From Amoeboradix gromovi X-113 (Eukaryota > Fungi > Sanchytriomycota), in assembly GCA_018985225.1 (NCBI GenBank), contig JADGIF010000072.1:1-23402 (forward strand): DNA of 23,402 nucleotides, given 5' to 3'. A model generated the notes under the pieces. That model had not been told where the DNA came from, searched no databases, and worked only from the letters and a program-made list of their open reading frames with translations. The translations under genes were made by a program, and so were the position numbers. This document shows positions 445 to 23,402 of the stretch, piece by piece; the stretch's first letter is position 1, and every line of letters begins with the position of its first letter.

Positions 445-885
445 ATGATGTTCTTAGCAATTCTATTTTCGTTTGTAATTCCCGGTCACGGTGGAATATC
501 CATTTCGGAACACTATCCAACAGTTCCAATTACTATCTTAAGTAGAGCTAGTTCTGGGACCAGTGAGGATGATGGAATATTGGCAAAATTCTACAGATAT
601 AAAGATCGATTGTATAACTTGGATACTAATATGTACGCGGAACATATAGGGGCACTCAATGCGCTGAAGGCCACTATTAATGAAGGGGATAAAATTGCAG
701 CTATTCTAGAAAAGTATATGGAAGATGATGAGATAACTTATGACGTTGATCCACTTTTTGAAAACTTAGCTTCTAAAACAGAAGAAATGAAAAAGTTTTT
801 GAACAAAATTAAGGAAGATAGCAATCCAGAGCGAGCAACTCGAAACGACAGTAACGGCTTGCTCTTTCACATAGAAGATATATGA
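445..885 (+). CDS. Small, probably secreted protein of unknown function (146 aa)
   Basis: ATG-started ORF with a hydrophobic signal-peptide-like N-terminus (MMFLAILFSFVIPGHG) followed by a charged helical region; no family recognised. Confidence 0.6.
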   Translation: MMFLAILFSFVIPGHGGISISEHYPTVPITILSRASSGTSEDDGILAKFYRYKDRLYNLDTNMYAEHIGALNALKATINEGDKIAAILEKYMEDDEITYDVDPLFENLASKTEEMKKFLNKIKEDSNPERATRNDSNGLLFHIEDI

Positions 886-1104: not shown

Positions 1105-2352
1105 ATGAAGCGCAAGTCTGCTGGGTTATTGATAGACGACGAAGGTGGTGCTTCAAATTCTAAGACAATGTTTTTGCTAATAAAGGCATTCCTAGGTACA
1201 GGAATTATATTCTTGGGCAAGGCGTTCTATGTAGGCGGGATTGTTCCTTCTGTGGTTATGATTGCTTTTAGTGCTTTTATATCAAATGTAGCAGGTGTAT
1301 ACTTGGTCAAATCGGCGGCTGTTGTTTCTGGTACCTATCAGGACATAGCCGGGCATTTGTACGGTCCCAAATTCAAGAAACTGGTATTGACTAGTTTGGG
1401 AATTGGTCAGTTGTGCTATTCCATGACTTACGTACTCTTTATTGCGGGTAATGTGAAAGATCTTGTCAGCACAATGAGTAATTGTAAATATCAATTAAAC
1501 GAAGTCTCCGTTATTATTCTTGCTGAATTGGTGGTCTTTATTCCAATGATACTGATGAGAAATATGAAGAGCTTCTCCAATTTTGCCCTTGCCGGTAACG
1601 CCACTGCACTGTGTGCTGTTGCTTACATTTTATACAACGACTTTGTCCAGTTTGGGAATGGTAAAATTGAGCCTAGATTATTTACGGACTTCTCTGGTGT
1701 TATTATGATCTTCAATATTTCTATTATGGCTTATTCTGGAATTGGTTTACTAATTCCAATTAGACAGGCAATGGCCACTCCAAAAGCAATGCCAAAATTA
1801 ATAACTGTTGCGTTGATTATTATGTTTTTGTTGTACACACTAGTTGGTGGGTTGTCTGCTCTGGCATATGGTAAATCGATTGAAACTATAATTTTATTAA
1901 ACATGCCCTCCGGAATAATACTTCAGATTCTGCAAATTGGTTACGTTTTCGCGATCACTGTTAGTGTGCCTTTACAGATGTTTCCTGCTTTTGAGATATT
2001 CGAAGCCAATATATTCCCGAATCCACAGTTGGGTCAAAAGTCTACTAATATGCAAGAACTGCAAAGATCCATATTGAGGGTAGTTATCATGGCAATTACA
2101 TGCCTGATTGCATATATGTTTTCCAATGTGCTTGATTTGTTCGTTAGCTTGGTAGGTGCGTTTATCTGCATACCTTCAACGTTTCTTTATCCACCCTTGT
2201 TGTATTTGAAAGCATCGAAAACTAAGGGAGTTGGGCCAAAGTTGATGATTGGATTTGCTCTTATAGCTATGGTGGTATCAACAGGGATGACGGTTATGAG
2301 TATCATTTCAGGTCACAAAGACGAGCAAGTCAACAGATGTATCGCACAATAA
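1105..2352 (+). CDS. Amino-acid transporter, Aa_trans/AAAP family (AVT3/AVT4, SLC36-like)
   Basis: 415 aa with roughly 11 hydrophobic segments; TM1 motif LLIKAFLGTGIIFLGKAF, IGLLIPI..AM..PK, LAYG..IETIILLNMP, PLQMFPA, LDLFVSLVGAFICIP. An in-frame TGA at 1093-1095 supports the ATG at 1105. Confidence 0.92.
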   Translation: MKRKSAGLLIDDEGGASNSKTMFLLIKAFLGTGIIFLGKAFYVGGIVPSVVMIAFSAFISNVAGVYLVKSAAVVSGTYQDIAGHLYGPKFKKLVLTSLGIGQLCYSMTYVLFIAGNVKDLVSTMSNCKYQLNEVSVIILAELVVFIPMILMRNMKSFSNFALAGNATALCAVAYILYNDFVQFGNGKIEPRLFTDFSGVIMIFNISIMAYSGIGLLIPIRQAMATPKAMPKLITVALIIMFLLYTLVGGLSALAYGKSIETIILLNMPSGIILQILQIGYVFAITVSVPLQMFPAFEIFEANIFPNPQLGQKSTNMQELQRSILRVVIMAITCLIAYMFSNVLDLFVSLVGAFICIPSTFLYPPLLYLKASKTKGVGPKLMIGFALIAMVVSTGMTVMSIISGHKDEQVNRCIAQ

Positions 2353-2433
2353 AATTTTAGTCTCACTTTTAACTTCCCGATTTCTCGTGCTAGAATCATT
2401 CTTACAAGTCTTACTTTAGAATATCATACGTTT

Positions 2434-2600
2434 GTATTTCATTGTAGTGTTCTCCTCATTAAAAGTCTGATTTCCGAGAAAATCGGGAATTTCCACAGAG
2501 AAACTAATGCTAGTTTCTCCGTTACAGTGATCGCTCACGCTTTCACTACCCTGAGGTGGGATTGAATAAGGATGCATATACTTGATGTATACGTTCCTTG
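2434..2600 (-). ncRNA. Predicted omegaRNA (scaffold plus ~20-nt guide) of copy A; 5' limit is approximate
   Basis: Hairpins at 2575-2593, 2526-2547 and 2498-2519 are kept in copy B. Loop CCUCA (2556-2552) is complementary to terminal UGAGG (2458-2454). The sequence diverges from copy B 3 nt further on. Expression is not shown. Confidence 0.6.
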
Positions 2601-2704
2601 CTGTCATATGATCTCTATCTATCTTCAAATGACACTTTTTACAGGTTCAGGTTTCTAAATTAGTTTTCTTTAAAGTACCACACCTCGTACATGGCATCGA
2701 ATTT
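2454..2704 (-). mobile_element. Fanzor2/IS607-TnpB-like 3' fragment with right end (copy A), non-autonomous relic
   Basis: Minus-strand translation NSMPCTRCGTLKKTNLET*TCKKCHLKIDRDHMTARNVYIKY matches the TnpB/Fanzor zinc ribbon plus RuvC-III (DRDxNAARNI consensus). In-frame TGA at 2649-2647. 2451-2693 aligns to 23086-23332 with 19 mismatches and 4 gap nt. Confidence 0.9.
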
Positions 2705-2816
2705 GTTCCATGGTGCCATGTGGTCCATGTCCACTTCGAAATGACACTATGTACATGAATAGCTCTCCAAATTGGTTTTCTTTAGAGTGCCACATATTGT
2801 ACATGGCATCGAATTT
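2705..2816 (-). pseudogene. Second, divergent TnpB/Fanzor zinc-ribbon/RuvC-III fragment (copy C), tandem to copy A
   Basis: NSMPCTICGTLKKTNLESYSCT*CHFEVDMDHMAPWN; ungapped 112-bp alignment to 2593-2704 with 84/112 identity; TAG at 2749-2747. Confidence 0.85.
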
Positions 2817-3067
2817 CCGTGTTTGGACTAGCTTATCAGTCTGAGACGAATGTATGCTGTACCTGTTAATTATTTATTTAGAATTGATTTACCGTTTGCG
2901 AAAAGGAAGAATATCGTGTGTTTAAGCTATTAGAAAAATCTGGAAAAGTCTTGAAATGATACAAAAATATATACAAACTCGCGATAAATGATTTATTCAA
3001 GAAAACAATCGAGCTGCTAATATTGTGGAGGATGTGATTTTATTTGTACGGGGTAAAACTCGGTTTG

Positions 3068-3988
3068 ATGCTAATTGCTGGCAAATATCGGTTGGGAAGA
3101 AAACTCGGAAGTGGGTCCTTTGGTGAAATCTACCTCGGGACCAACGTAGTCACAGGTGAAGAAGTAGCAATAAAAATGGAAAGTGTTAGAGCCAGACATC
3201 CACAACTAGAATATGAAGCCCGAGTTTATCGTTCTTTAGCTGGTGGCGTTGGAATACCTTTTGTTCGCTGGTATGGTCAAGAAGGCGAGTACAATGCTAT
3301 GGTAATTGACCTATTAGGTCCCAGTTTGGAAGATTTGTTTAATTATTGTAATCGTAAATTTTCTCTGAAAACTGTGTTGCTCTTAGCAGATCAAATGATC
3401 AGCAGAGTTGAATATATACATTCTAAAAACTTCATTCATAGAGATATAAAGCCTGACAATTTCTTGATGGGTCTTGGTAGGCGTGCTAATTTAGTCAACT
3501 TGATTGATTTTGGTTTAGCTAAGAAGTATAGAGATCCCAGAACTCATTTGCACATTCCTTATAGAGAAAATAAAAATCTAACAGGCACTGCTCGTTATGC
3601 TTCTATTAATACCCATTTAGGGGTCGAACAAGCTCGTAGGGATGACATGGAATCTTTAGGATATATGATGATGTACTTTTGTAGAGGTTCCCTTCCTTGG
3701 CAAGGACTAAAAGCAGCCACCAAAAAACAAAAATACGACAGAATAATGGAAAAGAAGATGACCACTCCGACCGAAGTCCTTTGTCGTGGTTTTCCCAAAG
3801 AGTTCACGGTCTACTTGAATTATTGTAAAGGATTGCGATTCGATGATCGCCCTGATTATGCTTATCTGCGTAGATTATTCAGGGAATTGTTTATTAAAGA
3901 AGGGTTTAGCTATGACTACATATTCGATTGGACTATAATTAAGAATGAAAAGGATGGCCAAGTATCATCCAAGGCACAGCAAGAGTAA
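3068..3988 (+). CDS. HRR25: Casein kinase I, Hrr25/Hhp1 (CK1 delta/epsilon) type
   Basis: [78 protein letters not shown]. First ATG is at 3068; the track start at 3044 is a TTG. The last codons may change through a possible 19-nt intron at 3985-4003. Confidence 0.95.
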
Positions 3989-6662: not shown

Positions 6663-9600
6663 TTATTGTGATAACAACATTGCTACTCCTCCCAATATCC
6701 ACTTATTGATAACGTCCTTTGATTTCAGATTCAATGTCCATATATATGTCGGCCCACGTTGCTTTGTTTTGTAAATCGGGCAAGGATACCCGTTCATATC
6801 TGCCTTGTCAACTGTCACTGCTTTCACATGTATGACTGGCATTTGGAAGTATAATTCTTTCATTCTAGAGTCCGTTAACCCGTTCTCATACCGCGCCCCT
6901 TCCAAATACAGTCCATCCATGTAAATTCCGTCTCTAGGGCCCTGTATTATTTCCTCTCTTGTCTTCTTCAACACTTCAATGTTCAACGTCATTTTATCTA
7001 ATGGCCATTCATTTCTCCGTGCGGTTGTTTGCATTACAGCTGTTAAAAACGCCTGTGGATTAAATAGCCATGACAAATTAACACATATTGGTACGTTAAA
7101 GTCAGAAATCCAACCTTCTAGCTGTTTGTATCTATTTAACAAATCAACAAACCATAAATTTAAACTGTTTGATGATGGATAAGTCATTTTTATCCAATTC
7201 TCTGGTATTTTGTTGAGATGCAATGATTGCATCATTTGTTCCATTAGGTCAGTAGTGCTCAAGTCTCCGTTAAGTCCCAACAACAATTCTATCAGCGATC
7301 TCTTCATTTCTGTTAATATTTTTGACATTCTATCGCATTCCTGCAGACATACACTCGTAAACGGAGTTTTATCCTCTATTTTAGCACTCATGTCTCCAAA
7401 CACTTCCGGTATTAGCACGATCATCTCTTCTATCATTACACGCAACAGCTCTTCCTTACTAACTTTGCCTTGGCCTAATGATTCTTTTGGTTGTAATTCC
7501 ATCATCGTCATAAAAAGCTTTTCACTTGTTATAGTCTGTACACTAATCTCCGCATTAGGATGCATGCCATACAGTAGGGGATTCTCTAACGGCAAATTTT
7601 CATCTATGTATCTATGGTATTCATTGTAGTCTAAACTGGGTGGAGCATTAAAATTCGCGCAGTAAAGCAATGAAGTGTCAAACAGTTCTTCACGTACGTA
7701 TACCTGCAGATATGTAGCACATAGTCTGCGATCTAAATCATCACTTATATGTCCGCCATACATAATCTCTCCAAATATGTATCTGATGTCATCCCACGGA
7801 ATCTTCGAAAACGACTCCAAATAATTGAACAAGACATCTACACTTATAGTCAAGTCTCCGTTATTAAAAGGGTAGCTTCTGTTCCATCCAATAGCTCCAA
7901 ATTTCTTACGTTCTACCACCACTGCATGAAAGTAACATAACGCAAATAATATTGACTTAAATTCTAATTCTTTGCTGCACTTGTCCAATATTTCCTGATC
8001 AAAGTTGTCCAACGCCTTGTGTAAATTAGCCTTCATCCCAGTTGGTGCTTCATTTGTTATTTTGATACTCTGCTGCAAGATAGAGGTAGGTATTATGTGA
8101 TATAATGGATCACCCGCCGGCTCAGCGCTAAGAAACAATCTAAAATTAACATTTATATCCAAGCGGAATATTTCCTCCATTTTCTTTTCCAGTGTCGGTA
8201 GCCACTTTGCAACTAAATGGATGTTTTGCAGCATCACCCATCCACCTTGGACTATAGCAATATCCAAGGCTCTTTCTGCTACTATTTCTTGTCCTTGTCC
8301 AAGCGATATATTATAAAAGTTGTTTAATTCTGTTGATATACCCAAAGTTTTTCCAATCTGCTCTACATCTTTCACAGGATCTACACCAGGACTCAATATA
8401 AAAAATATTGGAATGTATGCACTGCTTTCTTGGAATGTTGCGCCAAATGGTGTTCTATTGCCATTTACATATCGGTCTCCAATTTTAGTCGAAATAAACT
8501 GCCTCAAACCATACAATATCCTATCTGGTCTTAAGGCTCTAAGTATACACAATTGCTGGATTGCTGTTCTGTTCTTCCACTCCGATGGTAACTTTTCATT
8601 CTCTGGCTGCTCTAATTCACAATATTTCTTCCATCTCTTATTACTTTGTTCCAAATCATTACAGAGTTCTTTCAAGGCATCTATCTTAGTGAGCGCCTTT
8701 AGCGTTTGCCATTGGCCATCATTGATCCATTCAATTGGACATGTTGACACTTGGCGAGGACATCTTAACAAGTAATCTAAATCCACTGCATCTATTTCTT
8801 GCTCTTTAAGCATTATGTTGAACACCAACTGGCTAACAAATATTAATTTGTCATTCTCAAACAAGCCCCGGCTAGTAGAACTAAACACTTCAAAAGTAAT
8901 GCATTCAATTAAACACTTGACTCTATCCTTTACTTCTTCGGCTGTTTCTGCTTTGCTAATGGCTCTGAAAAAGACGTTTTTAAACGATTTTAAACTATAT
9001 TGATACATTGGGTGAATTACCCACATAGAGTTTAACAGAAAGTATAACATACTACTTCGATCCGCAACAGGCCTGTATATCTCCCTTATTTCATTGATTC
9101 TGATCTCGGTTTTAAAAGCTTCCTTGACTTTGAATTCAATTTCAATAGCAGTCCTTTTAGTAGATTCCAGATTCTCTACAAGTGTGGTGTCTCCTAAAAA
9201 ATTTCCCTGAGCACTGCTCAACTTGAACAGCAAATTGTCCTCCAATTCTAGCAGTTTTATTTTAAACTCATTCTGCTGTCGAGTCAGTTCGGCCCTACTT
9301 TTTTCCAACTCACTGCGCTCAACATTAACGACATCAGCTAATAACTGATCTTCTAATCCTTGTATAGTGACTGTAAAGTTTATAATACAAGTCTGTGCTT
9401 GTACTTCTGGAGTGTAATGGGGATTAGGCAGTCTAGTTTGCAAAATCAATTTAAACTTAGAATGAATCTCAACGTCCTTGTCACCCAATAAATAGTACTT
9501 GTTTTTTTTAATCTTGTTATTGCTAATGATGTTGTCTAATATGGGGTCTAATTGTTCACTGACATCTTCTAAAATACAGGTTAATCCCTCGCTAATACAC

Positions 9601-12600
9601 TTTTCAATCTTGTCCAAATATCCCTTGCTTCCTATACTGATTAACAGTGCATCTGGTAGTTTGGACTTTAGCCAATTTATACATTGAAGCTGCGGATCTA
9701 TAAATAGACACCACCTGCTTGAATTGGTATACATTAAAGCATTCTCTATTGAGACTGGATCTCTAGGCAACCCTTCATTTTGCCATTTACTAACATCTGC
9801 GTCATTTGATAGAAACCTTATTAAATCAAAGTCATCACTAATCATGATGTCTATTGATTTCAAGTACTGCTTAAAGTTATCAAGTAGTTCTCTTCTGTAT
9901 AATTTAGTAAATGGTCCGGCAGATGCCAAAAATGCTGCACTCAACAACACATCACCAACAAGTGTGGTTTCTAATTTACTGTACATATTAATAGCTTCTC
10001 CCCATCTTAATCTTTCGCTGCTTAACCCGTTTACCAATCTATCAGCCAATCCAAGTGTTTCTTGAGTTTTTTGGGCCTCATGTTCACATTTCAGCTTCTC
10101 ACTAGTTGCTTTCTCAAACTTGTTCCTTAACTCTATCAAGTCATTGTCTAACTGCATAACTTTGCTTTTTACTTGCTGTAATTTAGTTTGGGCATGATTT
10201 AACTGATCCGAAGATTCTTTTAGCGCTATTCTTTTAGGTTCTACATCGCAGAACACATGATAGTAAATAACTATATTCACAACCCACCCACAGAGTCCTG
10301 CTGCTGCTTGACTCTTACTTTTAATAAAATCTGCTGTAAAATCAGGATTTTGTAAATAAGGCTTCAAAGCGTCCAAATTGTTTTGATTAATGTCTTCTTT
10401 GTTAAAATTGACTAGGCTATCTAGAAATCTGTCCACGTTTGCCATTGCCGCTTTGCATGCCTTCCATGATTTATCCTTTACTATTTTACCACTAGGGCTT
10501 AACAGTATAATTACAGCCGCTACGACATCTTGAACTTCTTGGGATGGCGACCCAAATGATTTTAATTCTGTCAGGTTGGATTTATTCAATGTATTTAATG
10601 CGTCACTAGCTGCCGCCAGTGCGGGCTCTGCTGCTTTTAGGTCTTGTTCGCATAACCTTTTCTTTTCTTCAACAACTATTGTGAATTCTTGAACCTTTTT
10701 CTCTTCCTCGTCGGCCAGCTTTTTTTCATAATTCACCTTTTCAGTGTTCTCCGCTACCGTTGCTATCAGCTTTTCAGCATTTTCATTCTTTATCTTTAAT
10801 TCAACCTCCTGATCTGCTAGTTTGCTCTTTAAAATGTCTACCTGTTCACTAGTTGATTTTAGTTTACTCAACCCATTCTCTAGTCTTTCTTTACCTCTAG
10901 TCAAATCTGATGATTTTCTTTCCAAAAGCAGTTTAAAGAGGTTTATGTATTCAAGAAACGATTTAGGTGTTGCATAGTTGTATCTCTTGTCTATAAGTAG
11001 ATACTTCTTATTTACCTCGTCACAGGTAGTTTGCCAATAGCACATGAACTTAGCCAACGTTTCTCTGCAGCCTACAGGTACTAATTCTATATCACTCAAA
11101 AACCTCATAGCTACACTGAACAATGCTTCTTGTGGCCATCCATGGAACCAATTTAAATAGGTGCTACTCATTAGTGCTGGAAATCTCCTGCATCTTCTTC
11201 TCAACTTGTCTCCTACAGGTGATAAACAGATTATAAGCCTTAAATTTAACTTCACATTATCAATAAACTTTGTCCAGCAATTCTCACTGTTATCAACTAA
11301 CCCCATCTGCTTGACCTCGCTTCTCATAGCATTTGTAATAGTTGATACTTCTTCGTCAGGGAACAGTTGAGGAACGTCCCCACTCGCTAAGAAGTCGTTA
11401 ATTACGATAAGCATTCTTTCATCTATCAAATGTGATTCAGTTATTAAAAACGTGATTTGTTGCTTTTTTAACCCACATTTCATAAACAACTGCGCTAAAT
11501 CCAGCTTAAAGTCTGCTATTCCATATCCCTTCTTTAGGCTGATTTGATAAATAGTTCTGCTTGCCAAGTATGAGGCCAATTTACTTAAAGATTGTTTACC
11601 GCTCCCACCGACTCCAACTAGCACGATATTACCTCTATTGAACTCCAATACTCTATTTATCCTGCAAACGTGTTTTATCGCATCCTCAAATAGCACTAGA
11701 TTCATCTGTGAGTTGATTTCATTATAATTATTAAGTCCTTCTTCTAATATTTTTCTGCTCTGTTCCACCGTTGTTTTTAAGTATTTACCTTCATTTAGTC
11801 CCTTGGCAAATTTGCTGAATAAATTTGGTTCAATCTTCTCATTAAACTCTTTGTTGATCAGTTCTGATGAAATCCTAGCATAGCTATCCACATCTTCCTT
11901 TGTCATCATTCTATCACCATATACCCTCTGGCATTCATGCTGAATCAGATTGGCAAGATCCAAGGTACTAGTCATTTCGCTGTCTGCTGCTAGTATGCCT
12001 TGAAATACGCTACTTATTTCTCTCATATTGAATATGTAATGAAATTTAACAGCTGTAGGTAGAAATGTCGTACTAATTTTTTTATGTATGCTTAACACAG
12101 CATTTACAATCTTAGGTAAGTGGACAGTAAAAGACTGGTTTATTTGACCAACACATATATTGCTGTATATCTTGTTTAAATCATCATCACTTGGTGCATT
12201 CATCACAAATATTGAAAAATGTCGCTGTAGTCTCTTTGAGATCGTGAAATTGCCACTGGTCGGATTCATTGCACATATATATTGACAATTTACAATGTCT
12301 TTTAGCTGCATCTTACTTCTATCATACCAATGATTGTAATCTAGCTGTTGTCTCAATAGCGTGTGACAGCTTACAGTCCCATATTTATCTACTTCCGGCA
12401 TGTTCAGGTCGTCTATGAAGTAGATCAGTTTTTTATTGCCCACAGGCCCATAAGTTTTTCCAACTTTCTTTTCCAATGGTTTCTCTAGTATTGGTTGTAA
12501 AGATGTCGAGTTTGTGTAATAATTAAATGGAATGTTAACAAAGTTATGAGTGTCTGTAAACTGCTGCAGTTTTTGTTTGATTAAGCAAGTTTTACCTACA

Positions 12601-15600
12601 CCTGCCATACCCACTAGAAGCGTAGGATGTCCGTTTCCTATTAAGATATCTAGAAGATAATATTGTCTAATTGTTTCTGTTATTGGTATCATGGTATCAA
12701 ATATCACGTCTTTCATTTCTGCAGTAAACATTCGCTGTTCCCAATTTACAAATCTCTTCTTCTCTTGATCATAAAAATAATCAAACACATTCATATCGGA
12801 TGCATAAACAGTGTTAAATTCTTGCTTAAACATTTTACTAAATTCTAATCTGTAATCTATTAGGGCATCCTGCATAATTGTTCCACCAAATGCCCACACA
12901 CAGCTAAACGCAAAGAATCCTTCTAAGACTTCCTTTTCAAAAGGCTTTGTTAAAAAATGGTCCAAGAATCTGAACAAAGTGTTAATCATGTTAAATGGCA
13001 ATATGTCACAGTGTTTAACTTTTTTTATAAATTCTAAACATGCTGCTACATATCTTTCAAATAATTGCGATAAAATAGCCCTCTCGTTTGCATCCTCTCT
13101 TTTTTGTATCCAGCTATTTATTATTGCATTCATGCTAACATCATTCTGACTTATGTACAATATACCTGCCCTACTAACCGTTGCTGGCGTTGCATACTTT
13201 AAATCACCAATTTCAAATATCAGCCTCATATTATCTTTTAAAGGTATTCTCTCATTACTAGCCAATGTCAACACTTTATTATCATCCATAACAGTATTCA
13301 GAGATTCAATCCACATTGGATCTATGTCCCCATCTAGCAAGATCCACTTGCTGTCGTTGTTACCATTTGAAAAGTCTCTCATCACAGTACTGAATAACCC
13401 ATCTTTCCATTCCCTGGTCGACGGATTCATGAACCCGAACAATTCATCATTTGTCACTGCTTTTGGATCTAAATCAGCAAATTGACACTTTCTATTCAAT
13501 TTATGATATGCCCTGAACAGTGTTTTCCATACTTTGGATTTTCCAGTAGCCGCGTCACCTAAAATAAATACACAGTGTCGCACCTGTAACAACTCTTCTA
13601 GCTGTACTACTTTTAATATAAAACTATCTTCTGGCTGCAAATTCAGCTCCAAAGCACTACATCTAATCTCGGTTTCCAATTTGTGATCTCTTTTTCTCAG
13701 TACTTCCAATTTTGGGAATAAATCGGCAATCAATCCCATAAATATAGGAACATCTTCCAACACTATTTTAGGAACGTTAAAATCACGCAATGCTCTCATT
13801 AGCACTTGATCTTCTGGCGTAGTATTTGGCTCACTCCGCTTTAAGCTGCCGGCTACAACTAAAACACTCTTTATTGCTCTCAATCCCCAATCATAATGAT
13901 CTTGCTTGCTGAGGAGTTCCCTATTTAGTTTATATAATGTGTTAAACTTTCGGGCTAGTAGGTTTGCACTTGTAAATCCCTCAGCCATTAGCATAATTTC
14001 CATAATTAGTTCTAAATTAGGAACAACCATGGAACACGGTCTAAACAATGCTTTTAAATTATCGGGTAGTTCGGCTCTGCCTGCATATCCCGGGTTCATG
14101 GTAATCCAAATACCAACCGTCTGTTTCAATTTAATATCTTCTCCTAAGAAGTTGAACCTCTGTTTTTTAGCTCTTAGAGCGTCCTGAATACTCTTAACCT
14201 GTGTTGCAATTACACTTAAAACCTCCACACTGATTCTGTTAAACTCATCAAAACAGCCCCAACTACCACTCTGTGCTAGACCCTTGTAAATATTACCTAC
14301 ACTTTGATAGTCCATCTGCTCTGAACAATTAAAGACATATACCATAATTGCCATTGCTTTTCCTAAATCTTTGACTGTCTCTGTTTTACCAGTTCCAGCA
14401 GGTCCTTGAGGACTTCCTCCTAACTTCAGATGCAGCGCTTGTGATAAAGTTATATAACATCTATCTGTCAATGGGGTAACCACCAATCTAGCCGTATTGC
14501 CAAGATACTCGTAATTGTATCTAAACTTCGCATCACAAATGTTTATCAAGCAGTCTTTTTCATCATCATCCCACCGAATTCTTAATTGCGACTGCCAGCT
14601 CCAACACTGCGCATTTGTTGCCTTCTCCATTATCAGTTTACTCACTACATCTCTAGCATGTACATCTAATGTGCAAATGGTCATAACAAGAGTTCTGTCA
14701 TTTTTGCTCAAAGTTCCCTGTATTAGTGTTATTAGATTGGTAAGCTGCACACACTGCTTTTTGTACAAATCCTTCATTGCCATCTCATTCCCTTCTTCCA
14801 TTTTGATAAATGCCATGTTCACTTCTGAAGTCCAGAAGAGTTGAGTTCCCGCCAACGCTAGCTGAGAGCAGTGTTCTAAAATCCATTTTTCCCTTGGCCT
14901 TTCATCGTATTGTGCTATAGCATCGTTCAATTTGTATTTCAAACACTTCTTCATTTCGTTCTCTATGTCGCATAACCAGTGCTCTACAGCTCCCTTCAAC
15001 ACCAATGGCTGTTGAAACTCGACATACTCTTTCTCTCTGCTGTACATTCCTTTAATTACACTGCAATTTTCAGTTGCATCTACGAACTCTAAATCGCATA
15101 AATTATCAAACAACTTGCTCAAGTGTGATGATACCGATCTGGGGCAATTTCCATTACTCAATATGTCTAGCAAATCGGCACTGCTAATGAAATAAAATCG
15201 TGGAAATACCAGTCTTTTTGTCTCCAAATAGTCACTCAGTGCTTTTTCGCATTTCTGTAATTCATAGTGATATCCCTCCAATTTATCTAGTAGATTAGGC
15301 GTATTGCACATATCTATTATACCCGTCTTTTCTGTAACATGGAATTCTGTCATTAATGCTATAAAGTCCTCTGAAGTATTATGAAATCTTAATGTGTCAT
15401 CGGGTAACTGCTTCTTTATATCCTCGCTCTGACTAAATATGGTCTGCAAGTGACACCATGTAGTTTGCACAGTATTCAGTATAGTTATAATGCTATCCAC
15501 AGTTCCTAGAGTATTCTGCCATTCTACTATGTCACTTTTGAAGTAATCTATATTCTTACTATTCAGTAGATTCTGCAGCATCAATTGGTTATCCTCGAGA

Positions 15601-18600
15601 CATTCTACTAGATTATCAGGCATTTTGGCAATATAAGCATTTGAACTCTTCTCAAATACAAAGTTCATCAACTGCCATTGTTGATTAACATCATTAAGTA
15701 CCTTTTGTATTGATTGCTCCTTGTTCGACTTGTCAATTATAGTGCGCACATCGTCTTCATAGTGATGTAATTGCAACAGTAGCAGATCCTGCAGTGAATT
15801 CTTGTCGCTAATTATAATATTTACCTTAGCTAGCACCATCAACTGATCCCAATGGCGCTGTTTAATAAATGGACTCTTTAATTCACCAATTATTGTTATT
15901 TGCATAGTAATGTCTTTTACGTATTTTTCTACAAATGTAAATATTGGCCATGCCTTGACATCTTTGTCCATTTTTTTCAAATCCTTTAGCAAATCCTTAC
16001 TAAATTGTTCAATATATTCTACATCTATTAACTTCCACTGCATTTTTCTATAATGCTCAAACTTGGTGAGAGTGTAGAATGTAAAATCCCACACACTCTT
16101 TAACTGCCTCAAATTGAACAGGCAAGCGTCTAGCAACTCCATCCTTGGCACTTCAATCTCTAATACACTACTTACATTAACCAGTTCCTGTTTTTCTATT
16201 AAAAGCTGCCCTATTTCCCTTTGATAGTCATTAATTTGTGAATATTTAAATTCTGCATTATATTTGTATGGTCCGTTTACCAAGAAGTCTTCTCTGAAGT
16301 TCAATACCTTTCTATGTAGCCTTTTTAATTTCGATTCGATATTCTCTATCACTTGGACTTTCAGCGGGAGAATAGTCTCATTAGTTTTAAATGCAATTTT
16401 ATTCAGGCTCGCATGAAATTCTTTCAGCTCTTTGAAATTGTTCATTACTCCATCACTTGCGATGTTATTGCCCTTTAGAACTGATATTGTATTCTCCATC
16501 TGATCAAAAAAGTGCTGCTTGGTTTTATCAAACGCCGAAATCTGATTTATTGTTCGTATCTTGTCTATCAACAGGCTGTAATTGTCTGCATTTAAATCTT
16601 GCTTTAACAATTCCATTTGCTCATTAAACTGTGATGTATACTTACTTACCAGCACATTAAAATCGCTCTCATATTGATTTAGCAACTGGCCAATAGTCTT
16701 TTTAATACAGCTGCTGATGTAGTTCTTATAATTTCTCATATCCATTTTTATCCACCCATTAATTAAAATCTCATTTCTCAGTTCCTTTATCTGTACTTGC
16801 AGTGATTGTAATTTGTCCAGTTCTTCTTGCACTTTATCGTCCTTTAAGGTTTTCTCAATCCACGATTGTCTAGATATGTTATATAGAAATTGATAAACTA
16901 CCAAGTCATGCTTAAAATCGTTACCATCTTTCTGTGTTTTATCAATATTTATCACAATCTTCGATTCTAAATCCTTCACTTCAAATGAGTTCATTATTAT
17001 ATCATAAACATTCACCTCTCCATTTTTTCGGAACAACGTTATTTGTTTTGCTGTGTTCTTTATTTGGTCTACAATAAATTGTATTAATTCATATATGCTG
17101 TTCTTTGTCTTACTTATGTTAGGCATTAACACTAGTTCGTGATTTATTACATCTACTATTACCTCTACAAATACTTGCTCGCTTGCCATTTTTGTGTTTT
17201 CCAACAAAATCTTCAACGTGCTGATAGTCCATTCTTTTATTGCAGTAATCAACAGCTCATCCAAATAGTCATGAAATATAGAATAGTCTGAATGCACTAC
17301 AACAGAATGAATGTTCTCTAATTGTGAATTAAACTTTACAAAGCTAGAGCTTATCAGCATCTCTATGTTTGAATATCGCTCTTTTATCTCTGAAACTGTT
17401 ATGCACTTTTTAACATCTTTATCTAGCAATAAATGCTGCATCCACTCTTCTGTTGTGAGTTTAATTAAGTTCATTAACTGTTGCATTAAAGAATATCTCA
17501 TAATACAGGTGTCTATGGCATTCCATAGATTATTAACTAGGTCACCGATGTCCTGATCCCAAGTCATTGTATATCTACATTCATCAACATGTTGGGCAAT
17601 TATGGTCAAATAGTCTGCTAACATATCTTGACTCATTGAATCCATCGGAAGTATGATGTTATTGTATGCATTACATGCTTTTCTAAGTATTCGAATACAA
17701 TTTTGTATGGTACTACTCTTTTTATAAAATGCTGTTACAAAATCCGGAAGCATTAATTCAAATTGTAATTGCTGTTTGTACGCTATAAACAGCCTAATCT
17801 CATGCATATTGACTATAATATCACTGTTAATGTTGATTTTTATAGCGTTTGAATAGTTATCGGTTTTGCATTCCGAAAACACTGTGCTCAAGAAAGCTTG
17901 CTTTTCAACCTGCAAGTCTAGGCTACACAGCAGCGGAACCTTTAGATTAGAACTGGTTACATCTTCCATGTCTAAATGCCATTGCTTCCAGGTTATACCA
18001 ATCTCGGTAGTAATATACTCAATCATTTTAGAACATTTATTTATGAAAACGGTGAAGTCCACATCTAATACAACATATCGAGTTACTGTCGAAGTAAGTT
18101 CTTCTAACTTGCGTTTATACTCATAAGCTTCTACAATATATCCCATTACAGGAGGAACATTGTGCAGGTTAATCTTAATAGATTTGACACAATAAAATAT
18201 TGATTGAACGGTAGAATGATACTCCTCAAAGAGCTCAATATAGAAATTGATTAGATACTCTAGCACTGCAGGTCTCTTTAAGAAAGACTCTAAAACTTCT
18301 AAAACCCTCAATTTCATCCAAATGTCACCATATTCGTCGCAGTTACGTTTAATTACACTGGCAATATCCCTATCTAGTTGGTAAATCATCTTAAAAAAGT
18401 CCAAATAATCACACGTTGAAACACCAATATCTAACAAATCGCAAGATTTCGATTTAAGTTCTTCAAAGGATTTATTATACTGAAAAAACGATTTAGTAAT
18501 AACGTCGTTATAGATTTCGTTCTTGATGCCACCTAATTCTATCTTTTCTAACTTACAATACACCGACTGTGATTCAACAACCTCCTGAATGAACTCTAGT

Positions 18601-19649
18601 CTTTTAATGAATTCGCTACAATCATAGTACATATTGCCCGAGACATCAGGAAAACATTTTAGTAAATACTCTACATACTTGAGCACTACGGATTTGAGAT
18701 ATTTTAAACTTGTCGTGGAAACATAGCAATCAAGTGACAGGTAGTCCAGACCATAAATATTTTTAAGTAACTCAACTACTTCTTTTGATACTTTTGGGAT
18801 AACAATTTCCAATAAATGCTCTTTAGAGTATTCTTGAAAAAGCGGTAGTGATTCTTTTAAAGCTTTAGGAATCATAGCAATAGCATACTCTACATCTTTG
18901 ACATCAGGCGAAGTCTCTTTTAGAATGGACAACCATTTCTCGCATGCCTTAAATCCTGAGCAGACCTCTAAAGTAGTTTGAAGCAGGTGTAACTTCTCTT
19001 CAACATTCTTTAGAGTAAATCTAAATGGGGAGAATTCAAGCAGCTTCTCGACCTGACTGAATATTGGGGAGGAATGCTTATCACGAACTTCAAAGTAGAT
19101 GGACTGAATTTCATCCCAAAAAGAAATCTCTTCACTGAGAGTTTCCCGCCTCTGATTTGAAATTCGATCCAGCAATTGCTGTAATCCCTCTTTCCAGTTC
19201 ATAATCAGTGATTCTGAGTTTCCAATAGTTTGCACTCCGAATTCTACTTCCTTGAATTCAATTTTATGCAGTGCCTGTAAAGCCGCATTTTTAATGTTTT
19301 GAGTGGTCGTAGACAATACCATCTGCTCCACATTATTACCAGATGCCATATTTAAAACGACCAAGTCGTTTAAGAATCTCGTAGGTAGACTCTCATGGTA
19401 AATAGTGTGTCCATTTAGCTTTGAGTACACGTAAATTTTCTTTTTCATGTTCAAACCTGGTAGCATGCTATCTTTTGTTATTACTAGCTCATCTTTCAGG
19501 GAAATGTACACATAAATTGTGAAGTTGTGGGTTTCTTGAAATTTACTTAAAAGGTCAGAGTTGTCCTGGATTCCTTTTCTCAGCTTGTCTTGCTTGCAGT
19601 TTACAGTTTGCAAAATCCATTCTTGGATTTGTGGCTCTGCTGTTGGCAT
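6663..19649 (-). CDS. Axonemal outer-arm dynein heavy chain, beta-type (DNAH9/11/17, Chlamydomonas ODA4 class), about 4328 aa, single ORF
   Basis: P-loops GPAGTGKT, GDAATGKS, GMAGVGKT, GVGGSGKQS; VYVFNCSEQMDY, WGCFDEFNRISVEVLSV, LLSKQDHYDWGLRAIKSVLVVAG; C-terminus CPIYKTKQRGPTYIWTLNLK typical of the DNAH9/17 class. First ATG at 19649. Confidence 0.95.
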   Translation of the reverse strand: MPTAEPQIQEWILQTVNCKQDKLRKGIQDNSDLLSKFQETHNFTIYVYISLKDELVITKDSMLPGLNMKKKIYVYSKLNGHTIYHESLPTRFLNDLVVLNMASGNNVEQMVLSTTTQNIKNAALQALHKIEFKEVEFGVQTIGNSESLIMNWKEGLQQLLDRISNQRRETLSEEISFWDEIQSIYFEVRDKHSSPIFSQVEKLLEFSPFRFTLKNVEEKLHLLQTTLEVCSGFKACEKWLSILKETSPDVKDVEYAIAMIPKALKESLPLFQEYSKEHLLEIVIPKVSKEVVELLKNIYGLDYLSLDCYVSTTSLKYLKSVVLKYVEYLLKCFPDVSGNMYYDCSEFIKRLEFIQEVVESQSVYCKLEKIELGGIKNEIYNDVITKSFFQYNKSFEELKSKSCDLLDIGVSTCDYLDFFKMIYQLDRDIASVIKRNCDEYGDIWMKLRVLEVLESFLKRPAVLEYLINFYIELFEEYHSTVQSIFYCVKSIKINLHNVPPVMGYIVEAYEYKRKLEELTSTVTRYVVLDVDFTVFINKCSKMIEYITTEIGITWKQWHLDMEDVTSSNLKVPLLCSLDLQVEKQAFLSTVFSECKTDNYSNAIKININSDIIVNMHEIRLFIAYKQQLQFELMLPDFVTAFYKKSSTIQNCIRILRKACNAYNNIILPMDSMSQDMLADYLTIIAQHVDECRYTMTWDQDIGDLVNNLWNAIDTCIMRYSLMQQLMNLIKLTTEEWMQHLLLDKDVKKCITVSEIKERYSNIEMLISSSFVKFNSQLENIHSVVVHSDYSIFHDYLDELLITAIKEWTISTLKILLENTKMASEQVFVEVIVDVINHELVLMPNISKTKNSIYELIQFIVDQIKNTAKQITLFRKNGEVNVYDIIMNSFEVKDLESKIVINIDKTQKDGNDFKHDLVVYQFLYNISRQSWIEKTLKDDKVQEELDKLQSLQVQIKELRNEILINGWIKMDMRNYKNYISSCIKKTIGQLLNQYESDFNVLVSKYTSQFNEQMELLKQDLNADNYSLLIDKIRTINQISAFDKTKQHFFDQMENTISVLKGNNIASDGVMNNFKELKEFHASLNKIAFKTNETILPLKVQVIENIESKLKRLHRKVLNFREDFLVNGPYKYNAEFKYSQINDYQREIGQLLIEKQELVNVSSVLEIEVPRMELLDACLFNLRQLKSVWDFTFYTLTKFEHYRKMQWKLIDVEYIEQFSKDLLKDLKKMDKDVKAWPIFTFVEKYVKDITMQITIIGELKSPFIKQRHWDQLMVLAKVNIIISDKNSLQDLLLLQLHHYEDDVRTIIDKSNKEQSIQKVLNDVNQQWQLMNFVFEKSSNAYIAKMPDNLVECLEDNQLMLQNLLNSKNIDYFKSDIVEWQNTLGTVDSIITILNTVQTTWCHLQTIFSQSEDIKKQLPDDTLRFHNTSEDFIALMTEFHVTEKTGIIDMCNTPNLLDKLEGYHYELQKCEKALSDYLETKRLVFPRFYFISSADLLDILSNGNCPRSVSSHLSKLFDNLCDLEFVDATENCSVIKGMYSREKEYVEFQQPLVLKGAVEHWLCDIENEMKKCLKYKLNDAIAQYDERPREKWILEHCSQLALAGTQLFWTSEVNMAFIKMEEGNEMAMKDLYKKQCVQLTNLITLIQGTLSKNDRTLVMTICTLDVHARDVVSKLIMEKATNAQCWSWQSQLRIRWDDDEKDCLINICDAKFRYNYEYLGNTARLVVTPLTDRCYITLSQALHLKLGGSPQGPAGTGKTETVKDLGKAMAIMVYVFNCSEQMDYQSVGNIYKGLAQSGSWGCFDEFNRISVEVLSVIATQVKSIQDALRAKKQRFNFLGEDIKLKQTVGIWITMNPGYAGRAELPDNLKALFRPCSMVVPNLELIMEIMLMAEGFTSANLLARKFNTLYKLNRELLSKQDHYDWGLRAIKSVLVVAGSLKRSEPNTTPEDQVLMRALRDFNVPKIVLEDVPIFMGLIADLFPKLEVLRKRDHKLETEIRCSALELNLQPEDSFILKVVQLEELLQVRHCVFILGDAATGKSKVWKTLFRAYHKLNRKCQFADLDPKAVTNDELFGFMNPSTREWKDGLFSTVMRDFSNGNNDSKWILLDGDIDPMWIESLNTVMDDNKVLTLASNERIPLKDNMRLIFEIGDLKYATPATVSRAGILYISQNDVSMNAIINSWIQKREDANERAILSQLFERYVAACLEFIKKVKHCDILPFNMINTLFRFLDHFLTKPFEKEVLEGFFAFSCVWAFGGTIMQDALIDYRLEFSKMFKQEFNTVYASDMNVFDYFYDQEKKRFVNWEQRMFTAEMKDVIFDTMIPITETIRQYYLLDILIGNGHPTLLVGMAGVGKTCLIKQKLQQFTDTHNFVNIPFNYYTNSTSLQPILEKPLEKKVGKTYGPVGNKKLIYFIDDLNMPEVDKYGTVSCHTLLRQQLDYNHWYDRSKMQLKDIVNCQYICAMNPTSGNFTISKRLQRHFSIFVMNAPSDDDLNKIYSNICVGQINQSFTVHLPKIVNAVLSIHKKISTTFLPTAVKFHYIFNMREISSVFQGILAADSEMTSTLDLANLIQHECQRVYGDRMMTKEDVDSYARISSELINKEFNEKIEPNLFSKFAKGLNEGKYLKTTVEQSRKILEEGLNNYNEINSQMNLVLFEDAIKHVCRINRVLEFNRGNIVLVGVGGSGKQSLSKLASYLASRTIYQISLKKGYGIADFKLDLAQLFMKCGLKKQQITFLITESHLIDERMLIVINDFLASGDVPQLFPDEEVSTITNAMRSEVKQMGLVDNSENCWTKFIDNVKLNLRLIICLSPVGDKLRRRCRRFPALMSSTYLNWFHGWPQEALFSVAMRFLSDIELVPVGCRETLAKFMCYWQTTCDEVNKKYLLIDKRYNYATPKSFLEYINLFKLLLERKSSDLTRGKERLENGLSKLKSTSEQVDILKSKLADQEVELKIKNENAEKLIATVAENTEKVNYEKKLADEEEKKVQEFTIVVEEKKRLCEQDLKAAEPALAAASDALNTLNKSNLTELKSFGSPSQEVQDVVAAVIILLSPSGKIVKDKSWKACKAAMANVDRFLDSLVNFNKEDINQNNLDALKPYLQNPDFTADFIKSKSQAAAGLCGWVVNIVIYYHVFCDVEPKRIALKESSDQLNHAQTKLQQVKSKVMQLDNDLIELRNKFEKATSEKLKCEHEAQKTQETLGLADRLVNGLSSERLRWGEAINMYSKLETTLVGDVLLSAAFLASAGPFTKLYRRELLDNFKQYLKSIDIMISDDFDLIRFLSNDADVSKWQNEGLPRDPVSIENALMYTNSSRWCLFIDPQLQCINWLKSKLPDALLISIGSKGYLDKIEKCISEGLTCILEDVSEQLDPILDNIISNNKIKKNKYYLLGDKDVEIHSKFKLILQTRLPNPHYTPEVQAQTCIINFTVTIQGLEDQLLADVVNVERSELEKSRAELTRQQNEFKIKLLELEDNLLFKLSSAQGNFLGDTTLVENLESTKRTAIEIEFKVKEAFKTEIRINEIREIYRPVADRSSMLYFLLNSMWVIHPMYQYSLKSFKNVFFRAISKAETAEEVKDRVKCLIECITFEVFSSTSRGLFENDKLIFVSQLVFNIMLKEQEIDAVDLDYLLRCPRQVSTCPIEWINDGQWQTLKALTKIDALKELCNDLEQSNKRWKKYCELEQPENEKLPSEWKNRTAIQQLCILRALRPDRILYGLRQFISTKIGDRYVNGNRTPFGATFQESSAYIPIFFILSPGVDPVKDVEQIGKTLGISTELNNFYNISLGQGQEIVAERALDIAIVQGGWVMLQNIHLVAKWLPTLEKKMEEIFRLDINVNFRLFLSAEPAGDPLYHIIPTSILQQSIKITNEAPTGMKANLHKALDNFDQEILDKCSKELEFKSILFALCYFHAVVVERKKFGAIGWNRSYPFNNGDLTISVDVLFNYLESFSKIPWDDIRYIFGEIMYGGHISDDLDRRLCATYLQVYVREELFDTSLLYCANFNAPPSLDYNEYHRYIDENLPLENPLLYGMHPNAEISVQTITSEKLFMTMMELQPKESLGQGKVSKEELLRVMIEEMIVLIPEVFGDMSAKIEDKTPFTSVCLQECDRMSKILTEMKRSLIELLLGLNGDLSTTDLMEQMMQSLHLNKIPENWIKMTYPSSNSLNLWFVDLLNRYKQLEGWISDFNVPICVNLSWLFNPQAFLTAVMQTTARRNEWPLDKMTLNIEVLKKTREEIIQGPRDGIYMDGLYLEGARYENGLTDSRMKELYFQMPVIHVKAVTVDKADMNGYPCPIYKTKQRGPTYIWTLNLKSKDVINKWILGGVAMLLSQ

Positions 19650-19773
19650 TTTGACCTTTAGCACGAAACACTTGAATTCAGGATATTTATAGTAAAATCC
19701 TTAAACTGTGACAATGGTGGCAAACAATGTCGTATTACCTCTATTAAACTAAATGTATTTACTTCAATTACTT

Positions 19774-20791: not shown

Positions 20792-21133
20792 CTACATCAT
20801 AAGAGATATATAAACTGATGCAATTAAAATTGTTTTGAACAATGCACTCGTTGATGATCCACTTGTAATCGTACCAGGATTTCTGTTTCTCGGCTGAGCA
20901 TCTGCATTTGTTGTATTTGTTGTGTTTGTTGTGTTTGTAGCATTGGCTGCATCACTAGCAGCCAGTGGAGCATCACTTGTTGTTTCGACAGCTGTTGCAA
21001 TTGGCGAAGGTGCTTGGGTGGGTGTTGCAGAATCTAAATTTCCTGATCCCTCCAATGCTTTTGCTAGCTCAGTTGGTAGGCTTTCATTTGTTTGTCCTAA
21101 AATGAACGGGCTCAAAAATAAAATCAGTTTCAT
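20792..21133 (-). CDS. Small secreted Thr/Ala/Ser-rich, probably GPI-anchored surface protein (113 aa)
   Basis: Signal-like MKLILFLSPFILG, low-complexity core with NxT sequons, small-residue stretch SGSSTS then a hydrophobic C-terminus ALFKTILIASVYISLMM. Confidence 0.7.
   Translation of the reverse strand: MKLILFLSPFILGQTNESLPTELAKALEGSGNLDSATPTQAPSPIATAVETTSDAPLAASDAANATNTTNTTNTTNADAQPRNRNPGTITSGSSTSALFKTILIASVYISLMM
20903..20944 (-). repeat. 9-bp coding tandem repeat (NAT-NTT-NTT-NTT-NA)
   Basis: AATGCTACA AACACAACA AACACAACA AATACAACA AATGCA on the minus strand. Confidence 0.85.
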
Positions 21134-23077: not shown

Positions 23078-23240
23078 GACAGCTGTCTCCTCGTCAAAAG
23101 TCCTGATTTCTTAGAAAATCAAGAATTTCCACAGAGAAACTAGCAATGCTAGATTCTCCGTTACAATGATCGCTCACGCTTTCACTACCCTGAGGCGGGA
23201 TTGAATAAGGATGCATATACTTGATGTATATGTTCCTTGC
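23069..23240 (-). ncRNA. Predicted omegaRNA (scaffold plus ~20-nt guide) of copy B; 5' limit is approximate
   Basis: Same hairpins as copy A (23214-23232, 23134-23158, terminal CUUGAUUUU-CUAA-GAAAUCAGG). Loop CCUC pairs with terminal GAGG (23092-23089), followed by a unique flank. Confidence 0.6.
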
Positions 23241-23402
23241 AGCCATATGGTCTCTATCTATTTCCAAATGACAATTTGTACAGGTTCAGGTTTCTAAATT
23301 GGTTTTCTTTAAAGTACCATACCTCGTACATGTCTGACTAGTAAATGATTCATTGCATTCGACCATCGTCTTTCCTCTTTGCTTACACTTGAACTTCAAG
23401 CG
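23089..23402 (-). mobile_element. Fanzor2/IS607-TnpB-like gene 3' end with right end (copy B), continues beyond the window
   Basis: One frame from 23402 to 23094: RLKFKCKQRGKTMVECNESFTSQTCTRYGTLKKTNLET*TCTNCHLEIDRDHMAARNIYIKY...NQDF*. This is the TnpB L.YK...G..V...E.YTS.TC..CG...C..C....DRD..AARNI pattern. Lesions: Cys to Tyr (23321-23319) and TGA (23288-23286). Confidence 0.93.

What the first reader, a model, noticed from the sequence alone, without database searches (positions are those of the whole stretch)
2454..2593. Predicted omegaRNA fold with structure-preserving changes and a terminal pseudoknot
Seen on the minus strand, A vs B: (1) CGUAUAC-AUCAA-GUAUAUG vs CAUAUAC-AUCAA-GUAUAUG (G.U vs A-U); (2) CCC-ACCUCA-GGG vs CCC-GCCUCA-GGG (loop change); (3) AGUGA...UCACU vs AGUGA...UCAUU (G-C vs G.U); (4) GAGAAACUA-GCAU-UAGUUUCUC vs a 3-nt-longer version that extends the stem but has one U-U mismatch; (5) GAUUUU-N4-GAAAUC with loop CUCG vs CUAA. 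Loop CCUCA is complementary to the terminal UGAGG (5 bp in A, 4 bp in B). Known: TnpB reRNAs pair their last scaffold nucleotides with an internal loop just before the guide, and IS607 junctions use GG. Inference: the scaffold ends at 2454 and 23089. The same DNA also encodes about 40 C-terminal residues. Two sequences are too few to show true covariation.
Basis: partly seen in the sequence, partly recalled or inferred. Interest (0 to 1): 0.78.

Follow-up and report, generated by a model that had tools for sequence, protein, structure and literature searches.

The report
Fanzor2 guide-RNA scaffold in fungal transposon
This is the right end of a broken, many-copy DNA transposon in a fungus-like genome. 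It is predicted to fold into the guide-RNA scaffold of a Fanzor2 DNA-cutting enzyme, and related intact elements keep its pseudoknot pairing through matched base changes. The kind is known, but the element ends in AG rather than the usual GG, which likely means a CAG target motif.

Summary
The five stems are present as described, and both copies fold better than shuffles (z -4.2 and -3.5). The region is the right end of a 565-bp, internally deleted IS607-Fanzor2 element (2452-3016, minus strand) with at least dozens of insertions in this genome.

The A-versus-B differences carry no structural signal (2 of 10 break pairs; 2.25 expected, P=0.59). Three diverged relatives with full-length Fanzor2 genes supply the test. 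In the 8-pair core (3-bp hairpin plus 5-bp pseudoknot helix), three pairs change on both sides and none breaks, while the sequence between is no more alike than shuffles.

Corrections:
- The boundary is 2 nt further out (GGAG|, 2452 and 23087).
- The shared junction dinucleotide is AG, not GG, and left junctions read CAG|CT.
- Stem 1 is probably not part of the conserved scaffold.
- Both window copies have a stop upstream of RuvC-III.

The pseudoknot is already known for Fanzor2 omegaRNAs. New here are a fungal high-copy family and a predicted CAG TAM. Expression and activity are untested.

The parts
2452..3016 (-). Copy A: complete 565-bp internally deleted (non-autonomous) IS607-Fanzor2 element, junction bases included
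   Evidence: Depth of run X1 jumps from 136 to 1e4-1e5 over this span. 40+18 contigs diverge behind 3016/3017 and 42 before 2467 with a consensus reaching 2452. B shares the end.
3014..3016 (-). Left junction CAG: predicted TAM, whose AG is the predicted crossover dinucleotide
   Evidence: Contigs diverge at 3016/3017. L087 and L088 diverge immediately 5' of CAGCT; CAGCT occurs once upstream of the genes in L085, L086 and L088. TAM role inferred by analogy to IS607 GG/(T)GGG.
2452..2453 (-). Right junction AG: predicted last two scaffold nucleotides
   Evidence: All 6 sequences compared end GG-AG; 43 contigs diverge at the equivalent base 23087.
2454..2458 (-). 3' strand of pseudoknot helix (UGAGG)
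   Evidence: Pairs with 2556-2552; CUAGG in L085/L086 matches loop CCUAG.
2549..2560 (-). Pseudoknot hairpin: 3-bp stem, 1-nt linker (A/G at 2557), 5-nt pairing loop CCUCA
   Evidence: Outer pair C-G becomes G-C in L086. The only listed variant among X1 copies is the linker base.
2469..2547 (-).
   Evidence: MFE in A and B. Three hairpins at the same place in L085, L086, L087 with unrelated sequence.
2575..2593 (-).
   Evidence: Broken in about 55% of depth; 6/7, 4/7 and 4/7 pairs in relatives.
2518..2700 (-). Fanzor2 C-terminal remnant (zinc finger, RuvC-III), interrupted by TGA at 2649-2647
   Evidence: 52% identity over 61 aa to the L088 Fanzor2, E 1e-20.
2705..2816 (-). Diverged tandem duplicate (77%) of 2593-2704
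   Evidence: one X1 contig skips exactly these 112 bases.
2432..2451 (-). Flanking host DNA that would be the guide of copy A
   Evidence: Lies outside the family boundary; guide role inferred from Fanzor2/TnpB.
23087..23402 (-). Copy B: right 316 bp of a longer copy cut by the window edge; RuvC-II Glu, zinc finger, RuvC-III, scaffold
   Evidence: PF07282, E 1e-15. Best PDB match is ApmFz2 9B0L, with E18 on E467 and D51 on D501. TGA at 23288-23286.
23188..23199 (-). Pseudoknot hairpin of copy B
   Evidence: none of the 40 listed variant rows falls here.
23087..23093 (-). Terminal CGAGG-AG of copy B (4-bp pseudoknot strand plus AG)

Best explanation
This is the right end of a high-copy, internally deleted IS607-Fanzor2 transposon, and its minus-strand transcript is predicted to fold as the Fanzor2 omegaRNA scaffold, likely ending at GGAG (2452/23087) with the flanking host DNA as guide. 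Predicted fold: a 3-bp hairpin whose 5-nt loop pairs with the 5 nt before the final AG (H-type topology: 1-nt linker, helices able to stack), enclosing three stem-loops. Inferred mechanism in the intact parent: the serine recombinase TnpA exchanges strands over an AG dinucleotide at CAG target sites. Fanzor2 loaded with this RNA would cut the empty donor site (CAG followed by the guide match), favouring restoration of the element. Shown: repeat boundaries, family, IS607 TnpA in relatives, covarying core. Inferred: RNA expression, fold in vivo, TAM, crossover site. The two window copies cannot make active Fanzor2, so their fold is most likely inherited, and they were likely spread in trans.
For: Protein: PF07282, E 1e-15; Glu six residues before the zinc finger, aligned to ApmFz2 E467; nearest full-length relatives carry DPG. 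Family: window-family fragments plus L085, L086, L087 form one clade, SH-aLRT 97 in a quick tree of 73 rows. L086 and L088 encode IS607 TnpA above the NCBIfam cut-off (170 and 173 bits vs 110). Structure: across A, B, L085, L086, L087, 39 of 40 core cells pair, with three pairs changed on both sides. On the MAFFT alignment 37 of 38 cells pair, 12 of 500 shuffles reach this, and slid controls give 27-55%. The intervening sequence is 45-57% alike, against 46-48% for shuffles. In 5 of 5 sequences the MFE contains the loop-terminus helix; z -3.4, -3.5, -3.6, -2.0, -3.6. In L085 and L086 the partner strand lies beyond the stop codon, so coding cannot explain it. Ends: 43 contigs diverge at 23087, and 58 at 3016/3017. 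Literature: the pseudoknot is seen in the ApmFz2 structure with nt -4 to 0 (PMC11832414) and is needed by ISXfa1 TnpB (PMC10711439).
Against: Covariation rests on 4 families and two branches: the two pseudoknot pairs change together on one branch, and for 'pairs changed on both sides' 68 of 500 shuffles reach the observed 2. B and the 42-contig consensus have an A-C mismatch at the fifth pair. Two low-agreement loose-end consensuses (20 and 14 contigs, 0.47 and 0.46) read as altered terminal strands, unresolved. No pseudoknot-aware folder was run; support for the 3-bp hairpin is one compensated pair. L085 and L086 left ends come from single copies. L087 and L088 share their right flank, so they support only the left junction. 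A TnpA remnant in copy A is not detectable by tblastn (best E 0.6); only P0007 has a short similar stretch (8 of 14, E 0.004).
Confidence: 0.85

Rival explanations
1. The terminal GAGG pairs with the upstream CCUU(AUU) stretch to close an ordinary nested multiloop, and there is no pseudoknot.
For: Duplex energies are similar: -5.1 vs -5.3 kcal/mol in A. L087 also folds this way unconstrained.
Against: L085 and L086 lack the upstream CCUU, while their loop and terminus change in step. The same pseudoknot position is seen in ApmFz2.
Confidence: 0.05
2. The stems are DNA-level features (transposase-binding inverted repeats, or by-products of the protein tail) and no RNA function was ever involved.
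For: The hairpin lies in P-P-Q/R-G/A codons kept in all relatives. IS607 ends carry imperfect inverted repeats (PMC6188088). Stem 1 does look codon-driven.
Against: Long-range covariation over 85-100 nt with a partner outside the ORF in 2 of 3 relatives. G-U-dependent stems and better folding on the sense strand. Fanzor2 proteins are RNA-guided (PMC10432273).
Confidence: 0.04
3. The element is a Fanzor2* cut-and-paste transposon with a 2-bp AG target-site duplication, moved by a DDE transposase rather than an IS607 serine recombinase.
For: AG at both junctions looks the same as a 2-bp TSD. The first and last 7 nt are a weak inverted match. Fanzor2* with TSDs exist (PMC10711439). No host TnpA among the 120 listed of 2108 hits. 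L085 shows no TnpA ORF.
Against: The sister element L087/L088 and L086 encode IS607 TnpA and have the same CAG|CT and GGAG| junctions. P0007 keeps a TnpA-like N-terminal stretch.
Confidence: 0.06

Closest known systems
ApmFz2 / ISvMimi1 (mimivirus IS607-Fanzor2) omegaRNA, PDB 9B0L
   Same: Fanzor2 with shifted RuvC-II glutamate; IS607 TnpA partner; pseudoknot between a 5' loop and the last scaffold nucleotides; long variable stem-loops between them; 3-nt TAM (PMC11832414, PMC10530073).
   Different: TAM GGG versus predicted CAG. Scaffold about 205 nt and downstream of the ORF, versus about 110 nt from hairpin to end and overlapping the ORF tail. Here a nuclear, high-copy, non-autonomous family.
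ISXfa1 pro-Fanzor and CboIStron IS607 TnpB reRNAs
   Same: Three stem-loops plus a pseudoknot; the junction dinucleotide is part of the scaffold; the TAM contains the core dinucleotide (PMC10711439; bioRxiv 2023.11.20.567912).
   Different: GG core and GGG/TGGG TAM; bacterial; no intron seen here.
RAGATH-18 IS607 TnpB (ISFba1)
   Same: IS607 nuclease with an AG-ending TAM (AGGAG), so AG-ending IS607 motifs have precedent (PMC11061315).
   Different: A different TnpB group and RNA family (no Rfam match); 5-nt TAM.
Ghost Spu-1 elements of Spizellomyces punctatus (Fanzor1)
   Same: About 550-nt ORF-less copies in a zoosporic fungus that outnumber full copies and keep an omegaRNA (PMC10432273).
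   Different: Fanzor1 with 30-nt terminal inverted repeats and no pseudoknot; here Fanzor2/IS607 with a pseudoknot and no clear TIRs.
MmeFz2 and NlovFz2
   Same: Eukaryotic Fanzor2 with 3-nt TAMs (TAG, CCG; PMC10432273).
   Different: Mollusc elements are non-IS607 cut-and-paste Fanzor2* (PMC10711439); CAG is not among the TAMs in the passages read.

Membership tests
Fanzor2 (Fanzor/pro-Fanzor clade) | RuvC-II glutamate six residues before the zinc finger (Ealt) | tested here: met
   Copy B E18-SFTSQT-C25, aligned to ApmFz2 E467.
Fanzor2 (Fanzor/pro-Fanzor clade) | DPG motif in RuvC-I | tested here: inconclusive
   This part is deleted or outside the window. Present in the three nearest full-length relatives, L085, L086, L087.
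Fanzor2 (Fanzor/pro-Fanzor clade) | Phylogenetic placement among Fanzor2 in a eukaryotic genome | tested here: met
   Quick tree, clade support 97, among viral and metagenomic Fanzor2-like rows. Host genes are eukaryotic. No reference Fanzor1 rows were in the tree.
Fanzor2 (Fanzor/pro-Fanzor clade) | RNA-guided DNA cleavage | not testable with these tools
   Window copies are broken; relatives untested.
TnpB/Fanzor2 omegaRNA | Structured region at the right end, overlapping or following the nuclease C-terminus | tested here: met
TnpB/Fanzor2 omegaRNA | Pseudoknot between first loop and scaffold 3' end | tested here: met
   Three compensated pairs in the 8-pair core across 4 families; small sample.
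TnpB/Fanzor2 omegaRNA | Expressed RNA extending into the flank and bound by the nuclease | not testable with these tools
   No RNA run available.
IS607 family | Serine-recombinase TnpA upstream of and overlapping tnpB | tested here: inconclusive
   Met in L086 and L088. Not detectable in copy A; weak remnant in P0007; no ORF in L085.
IS607 family | Same dinucleotide at both junctions, no long TIRs | tested here: met
   AG at both junctions; no inverted repeat between the two ends among the 25 longest listed of 54.
IS607 family | Junction dinucleotide is GG (typical, not universal) | tested here: not met
   It is AG. Other related families also end in GCAC, GTCAG or TTTAG, so GG is not universal. 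Reviews say 'most' members end in GG.
Fanzor1 / ghost Spu-1 | Loss of pseudoknot; terminal inverted repeats | tested here: not met
   Pseudoknot present; no clear TIR.

The most novel reading that the evidence does not exclude
An AG-core, CAG-TAM lineage of IS607-Fanzor2 entered a fungal nucleus and amplified as short ORF-less copies that are still transcribed. Each copy supplies a pseudoknotted omegaRNA with a different flank-derived guide to a surviving Fanzor2 in trans. That would make it a serine-recombinase transposon acting as a dispersed guide library in a eukaryote.
Probability: 0.15. Interest if true: 0.7.

Novelty: new member of a known kind. Interest (0 to 1): 0.4.

Why it matters
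The pseudoknot of Fanzor2 omegaRNAs is known from one cryo-EM structure and manual predictions; this clade adds natural compensatory changes that pin its register and the scaffold/guide boundary. It yields testable, compact nuclease candidates (551-604 aa; L085, L086, L088) with a roughly 110-125-nt scaffold and a predicted CAG TAM, not among the Fanzor2 TAMs in the papers read. It also shows an IS607-type element reaching at least dozens of nuclear copies in an early-branching fungus-like genome. None of this changes the known mechanism.

Tried and rejected
No assembled genome was held, so copies could be seen only through summary tables of one DNA run (X1, possibly the window's own source), not as haplotypes. 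No RNA holder was listed; this says nothing about expression.

Searches that found nothing useful:
- Rfam: 0 matches at E<=1.
- Exact 24-nt core pattern in metagenome contigs: 0 hits.
- Two gapped hairpin-plus-terminus patterns in viral contigs: 11+12 hits, 0 of 23 with a Fanzor gene, so chance; these 23 loci were dropped from later counts.
- P0001 in viral contigs: 5 distant phage TnpBs.
- Longer homologues of P0001: 1 hit among 21 candidates, no host full-length protein. None among 32 hits of P0008 and no host TnpA among the 120 listed. All three are weak negatives.
- No second site matching AG plus either guide in the window.
- Three look-ups of earlier scan findings were empty.

Readings considered and dropped:
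- TGA read as Trp: rejected, because host genes use TGG and other copies have Tyr there.
- Generic pseudoknot-motif scan: 11 of 97 segments vs 1.8 in shuffles, but the anchor pattern missed L085.

Limits on the analyses:
- The careful tree did not finish; only the quick tree is used, and window rows fill 28-47% of its columns.
- Neighbour genes of L085, L086, L088: 8 of 10 had no Pfam hit, so a giant-virus origin of those contigs is untested.

Full report
SETTING. The window is a gene-dense eukaryotic contig at about 37% GC, with dynein heavy chain, an alpha-actinin-like protein, casein kinase 1, an RFC subunit and a Pex24-family gene (the dynein and CK1 names are my reading of the sequences). 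No assembly was held. The only long repeats are 2451-2693 matching 23086-23332 at 90.7%, and a 77% tandem duplicate at 2705-2816. The five closest proteins to the window frame (84-92% over 38 aa; 8 hits in all) are short fragments labelled Amoeboradix gromovi in EukProt. The host is therefore likely that fungus or a close relative (inference).

OBSERVATION. The A/B differences do not test the structure: 10 substitutions, 4 in paired sites, 2 breaking, against 4.9 and 2.25 expected, P=0.59.

WHAT THE ELEMENT IS. Copy B's minus frame is a Cas12f1-like TNB domain (E 1e-15). Its best solved match is ApmFz2, with the shifted RuvC-II glutamate and RuvC-III aspartate in register (residue numbers from PMC11832414). 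Both copies carry the same in-frame TGA; about 19% of laid depth has TAC there, and other copies have Tyr.

BOUNDARIES AND COPY NUMBER. In DNA run X1, 1,768 of 69,711 contigs lay on 2200-3100, and depth rose from 136 to as much as 1.3e5 only between about 2452 and 3016 (the tool warns this is not a copy number). Contigs leave the reference at 3016 (40) and 3017 (18) into flanks with no consensus. On copy B, 43 leave at 23087, with 16, 20 and 14 more at 23090, 23096 and 23097 (171 further rows not shown). So copy A is a complete 565-bp element with at least dozens of insertions, starting CAG-CT and ending GG-AG on the minus strand.

RELATIVES. P0008 (551 aa) and P0012 (604 aa) are full-length DPG/Ealt proteins whose tails echo the window's P-P-Q-G. 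A metagenome scan returned their DNA (L085, L086) and a closer element (L087/L088) among 80 loci kept of 505 (only 22 of 64 parts of the collection were scanned). Of 154 distinct C-termini from 283 loci, the best three matches to the window family were L087 (65%), L085 (60%) and L086 (55%); the next of the 40 printed were 51% or less. A quick tree of 73 rows (the 60 best and 8 worst of the 154, plus 5 proteins) puts these with the window family in one clade (97), L087 as sister (95). L086 and L088 encode IS607 TnpA overlapping the nuclease. L087 and L088 differ just 5' of CAGCT, fixing the left junction of a 1,890-bp autonomous element, but share their right flank. CAGCT occurs once in the 255-288 nt upstream in L085, L086 and L088.

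STRUCTURE TEST. Core sequences:
- A: CCC-A-CCUCA-GGG ... UGAGG-AG
- B: CCC-G-CCUCA-GGG ... CGAGG-AG
- L087: CCC-G-CCUCA-GGG ... UGAGG-AG
- L085: CCC-G-CCUAG-GGG ... CUAGG-AG
- L086: GCC-G-CCUAG-GGC ... CUAGG-AG
Three of eight pairs change on both sides; the only unpaired cell is B's A-C. The tool count on the MAFFT alignment, which gaps one of these columns in two rows, gives 37 of 38 cells paired (12 of 500 shuffles as high), 2 pairs with double changes (68 of 500), and 27-55% pairing when partners are slid. The spacer is as unlike as shuffled sequence yet folds into three hairpins in each family, and all 5 MFEs contain the loop-terminus helix. The evidence is real but thin: four families, two branches.

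VARIANTS WITHIN THE HOST FAMILY. 12 of the 40 listed variant rows (of 50) fall in the scaffold and none in the hairpin or terminal strand, though variants near contig ends are under-reported. Majority variants break stem 1 (55%), the middle of stem 4 (85%) and the extension of stem 5 (94%). B's G-U in stem 3 is private (98% have G-C). One 14-contig consensus (agreement 0.62) implies an A-U to G-C double change in stem 4. Two weak consensuses suggest altered terminal strands. Stem 1 is poorly kept in relatives (6, 4, 4 of 7), and I read it as a by-product of the N-I-Y-x-K-Y-M codons, probably 5' of the mature RNA. That last step is inferred from ApmFz2, whose RNA begins about 13 nt before the pseudoknot pairs.

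MECHANISM. By analogy with IS607 (exchange over a 2-bp core, TAM containing that core, core bases kept in the scaffold; PMC6188088, bioRxiv 2023.11.20.567912, PMC10711439), the parent inserts at CAG by exchange over AG. Its Fanzor2-omegaRNA would cut the empty site. The window copies lack both genes and would be moved in trans. Whether their RNA is made or used is unknown. An AG target-site duplication by a DDE transposase looks identical at the junctions, but is disfavoured by the TnpA in the sister elements.

KNOWN VERSUS NEW. The pseudoknot is described for Fanzor2 and IS607 TnpB. ORF-less omegaRNA copies of about 550 nt are described for Fanzor1 in S. punctatus (PMC10432273). Non-GG ends are not unique: among 66 loci with paired 3' ends, families ended in CGG, GCAC, GTCAG or TTTAG, and RAGATH-18 IS607 TnpBs use AGGAG (PMC11061315). 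I found no paper on this family or on a CAG-TAM Fanzor2 in searches; the library lacks most subscription papers.

PAPERS SEEN. PMC10711439: passages and sections 21, 23, 24, 26, 28. PMC11832414: parts 1-2 of 5. PMC3627910: passages and section 13. Passages only: bioRxiv 2023.11.20.567912, PMC10530073, PMC6188088, PMC4058570, PMC13565253, PMC10432273, PMC11061315. No supplements were opened; their locus tables could already list this family. The H-type geometry argument (a 1-nt linker crossing a 5-bp helix) is from my own knowledge.

VERDICT. Real feature, interpretation mostly right, boundary corrected to 2452/23087 with an AG junction. A new member of the IS607-Fanzor2 omegaRNAs, with a testable CAG TAM prediction. 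Interest 0.4.

Noticed in passing
window 2705-2816: Copy A carries a 77%-identical tandem duplicate of the zinc-finger/RuvC-III coding stretch; one X1 contig lacks it.
   Followed up: partly
window 2352-3070: Copy A fills most of the gap between the amino-acid transporter and CK1 genes; its left end is about 50 bp upstream of the likely CK1 start, so it could affect that promoter.
   Followed up: no
window 2840-2880 (minus strand): Reads SK*IINRYSIH, resembling P0007 (SKEIISRYSIQ) and the TnpA N-terminus of L088; not significant by tblastn.
   Followed up: partly
window 6663-19664: A 4,333-aa dynein heavy-chain-like ORF without introns, fitting a compact flagellated genome.
   Followed up: no
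L086 2530-2550: The candidate left junction lies in the last codons of a 514-aa ORF, whose stop codon would then be supplied by the element.
   Followed up: no
L087 1982-1988: The Fanzor2 stop codon TGA is the first three bases of the pseudoknot partner strand.
   Followed up: partly
L008, L010, L090, L093, L098, L099, L114, L116, L128, L131, L133, L135, L165, L205: A large pro-Fanzor-like group (including cyanobacterial genomes) shares a right end TGTTGCAC, i.e. a non-GG junction; L089/L094 end GTCAG and L230/L238 end TTTAG.
   Followed up: no
L270-L277, L286: Giant-virus Fanzor2 family with a very short 3' region (about 90 nt from RuvC-III to a CGG end), a candidate minimal omegaRNA.
   Followed up: no
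window 445-885 and 20792-21133: Two ORFs (146 and 113 aa) without Pfam match; the second looks like a secreted, T/A-rich, possibly anchored surface protein.
   Followed up: no
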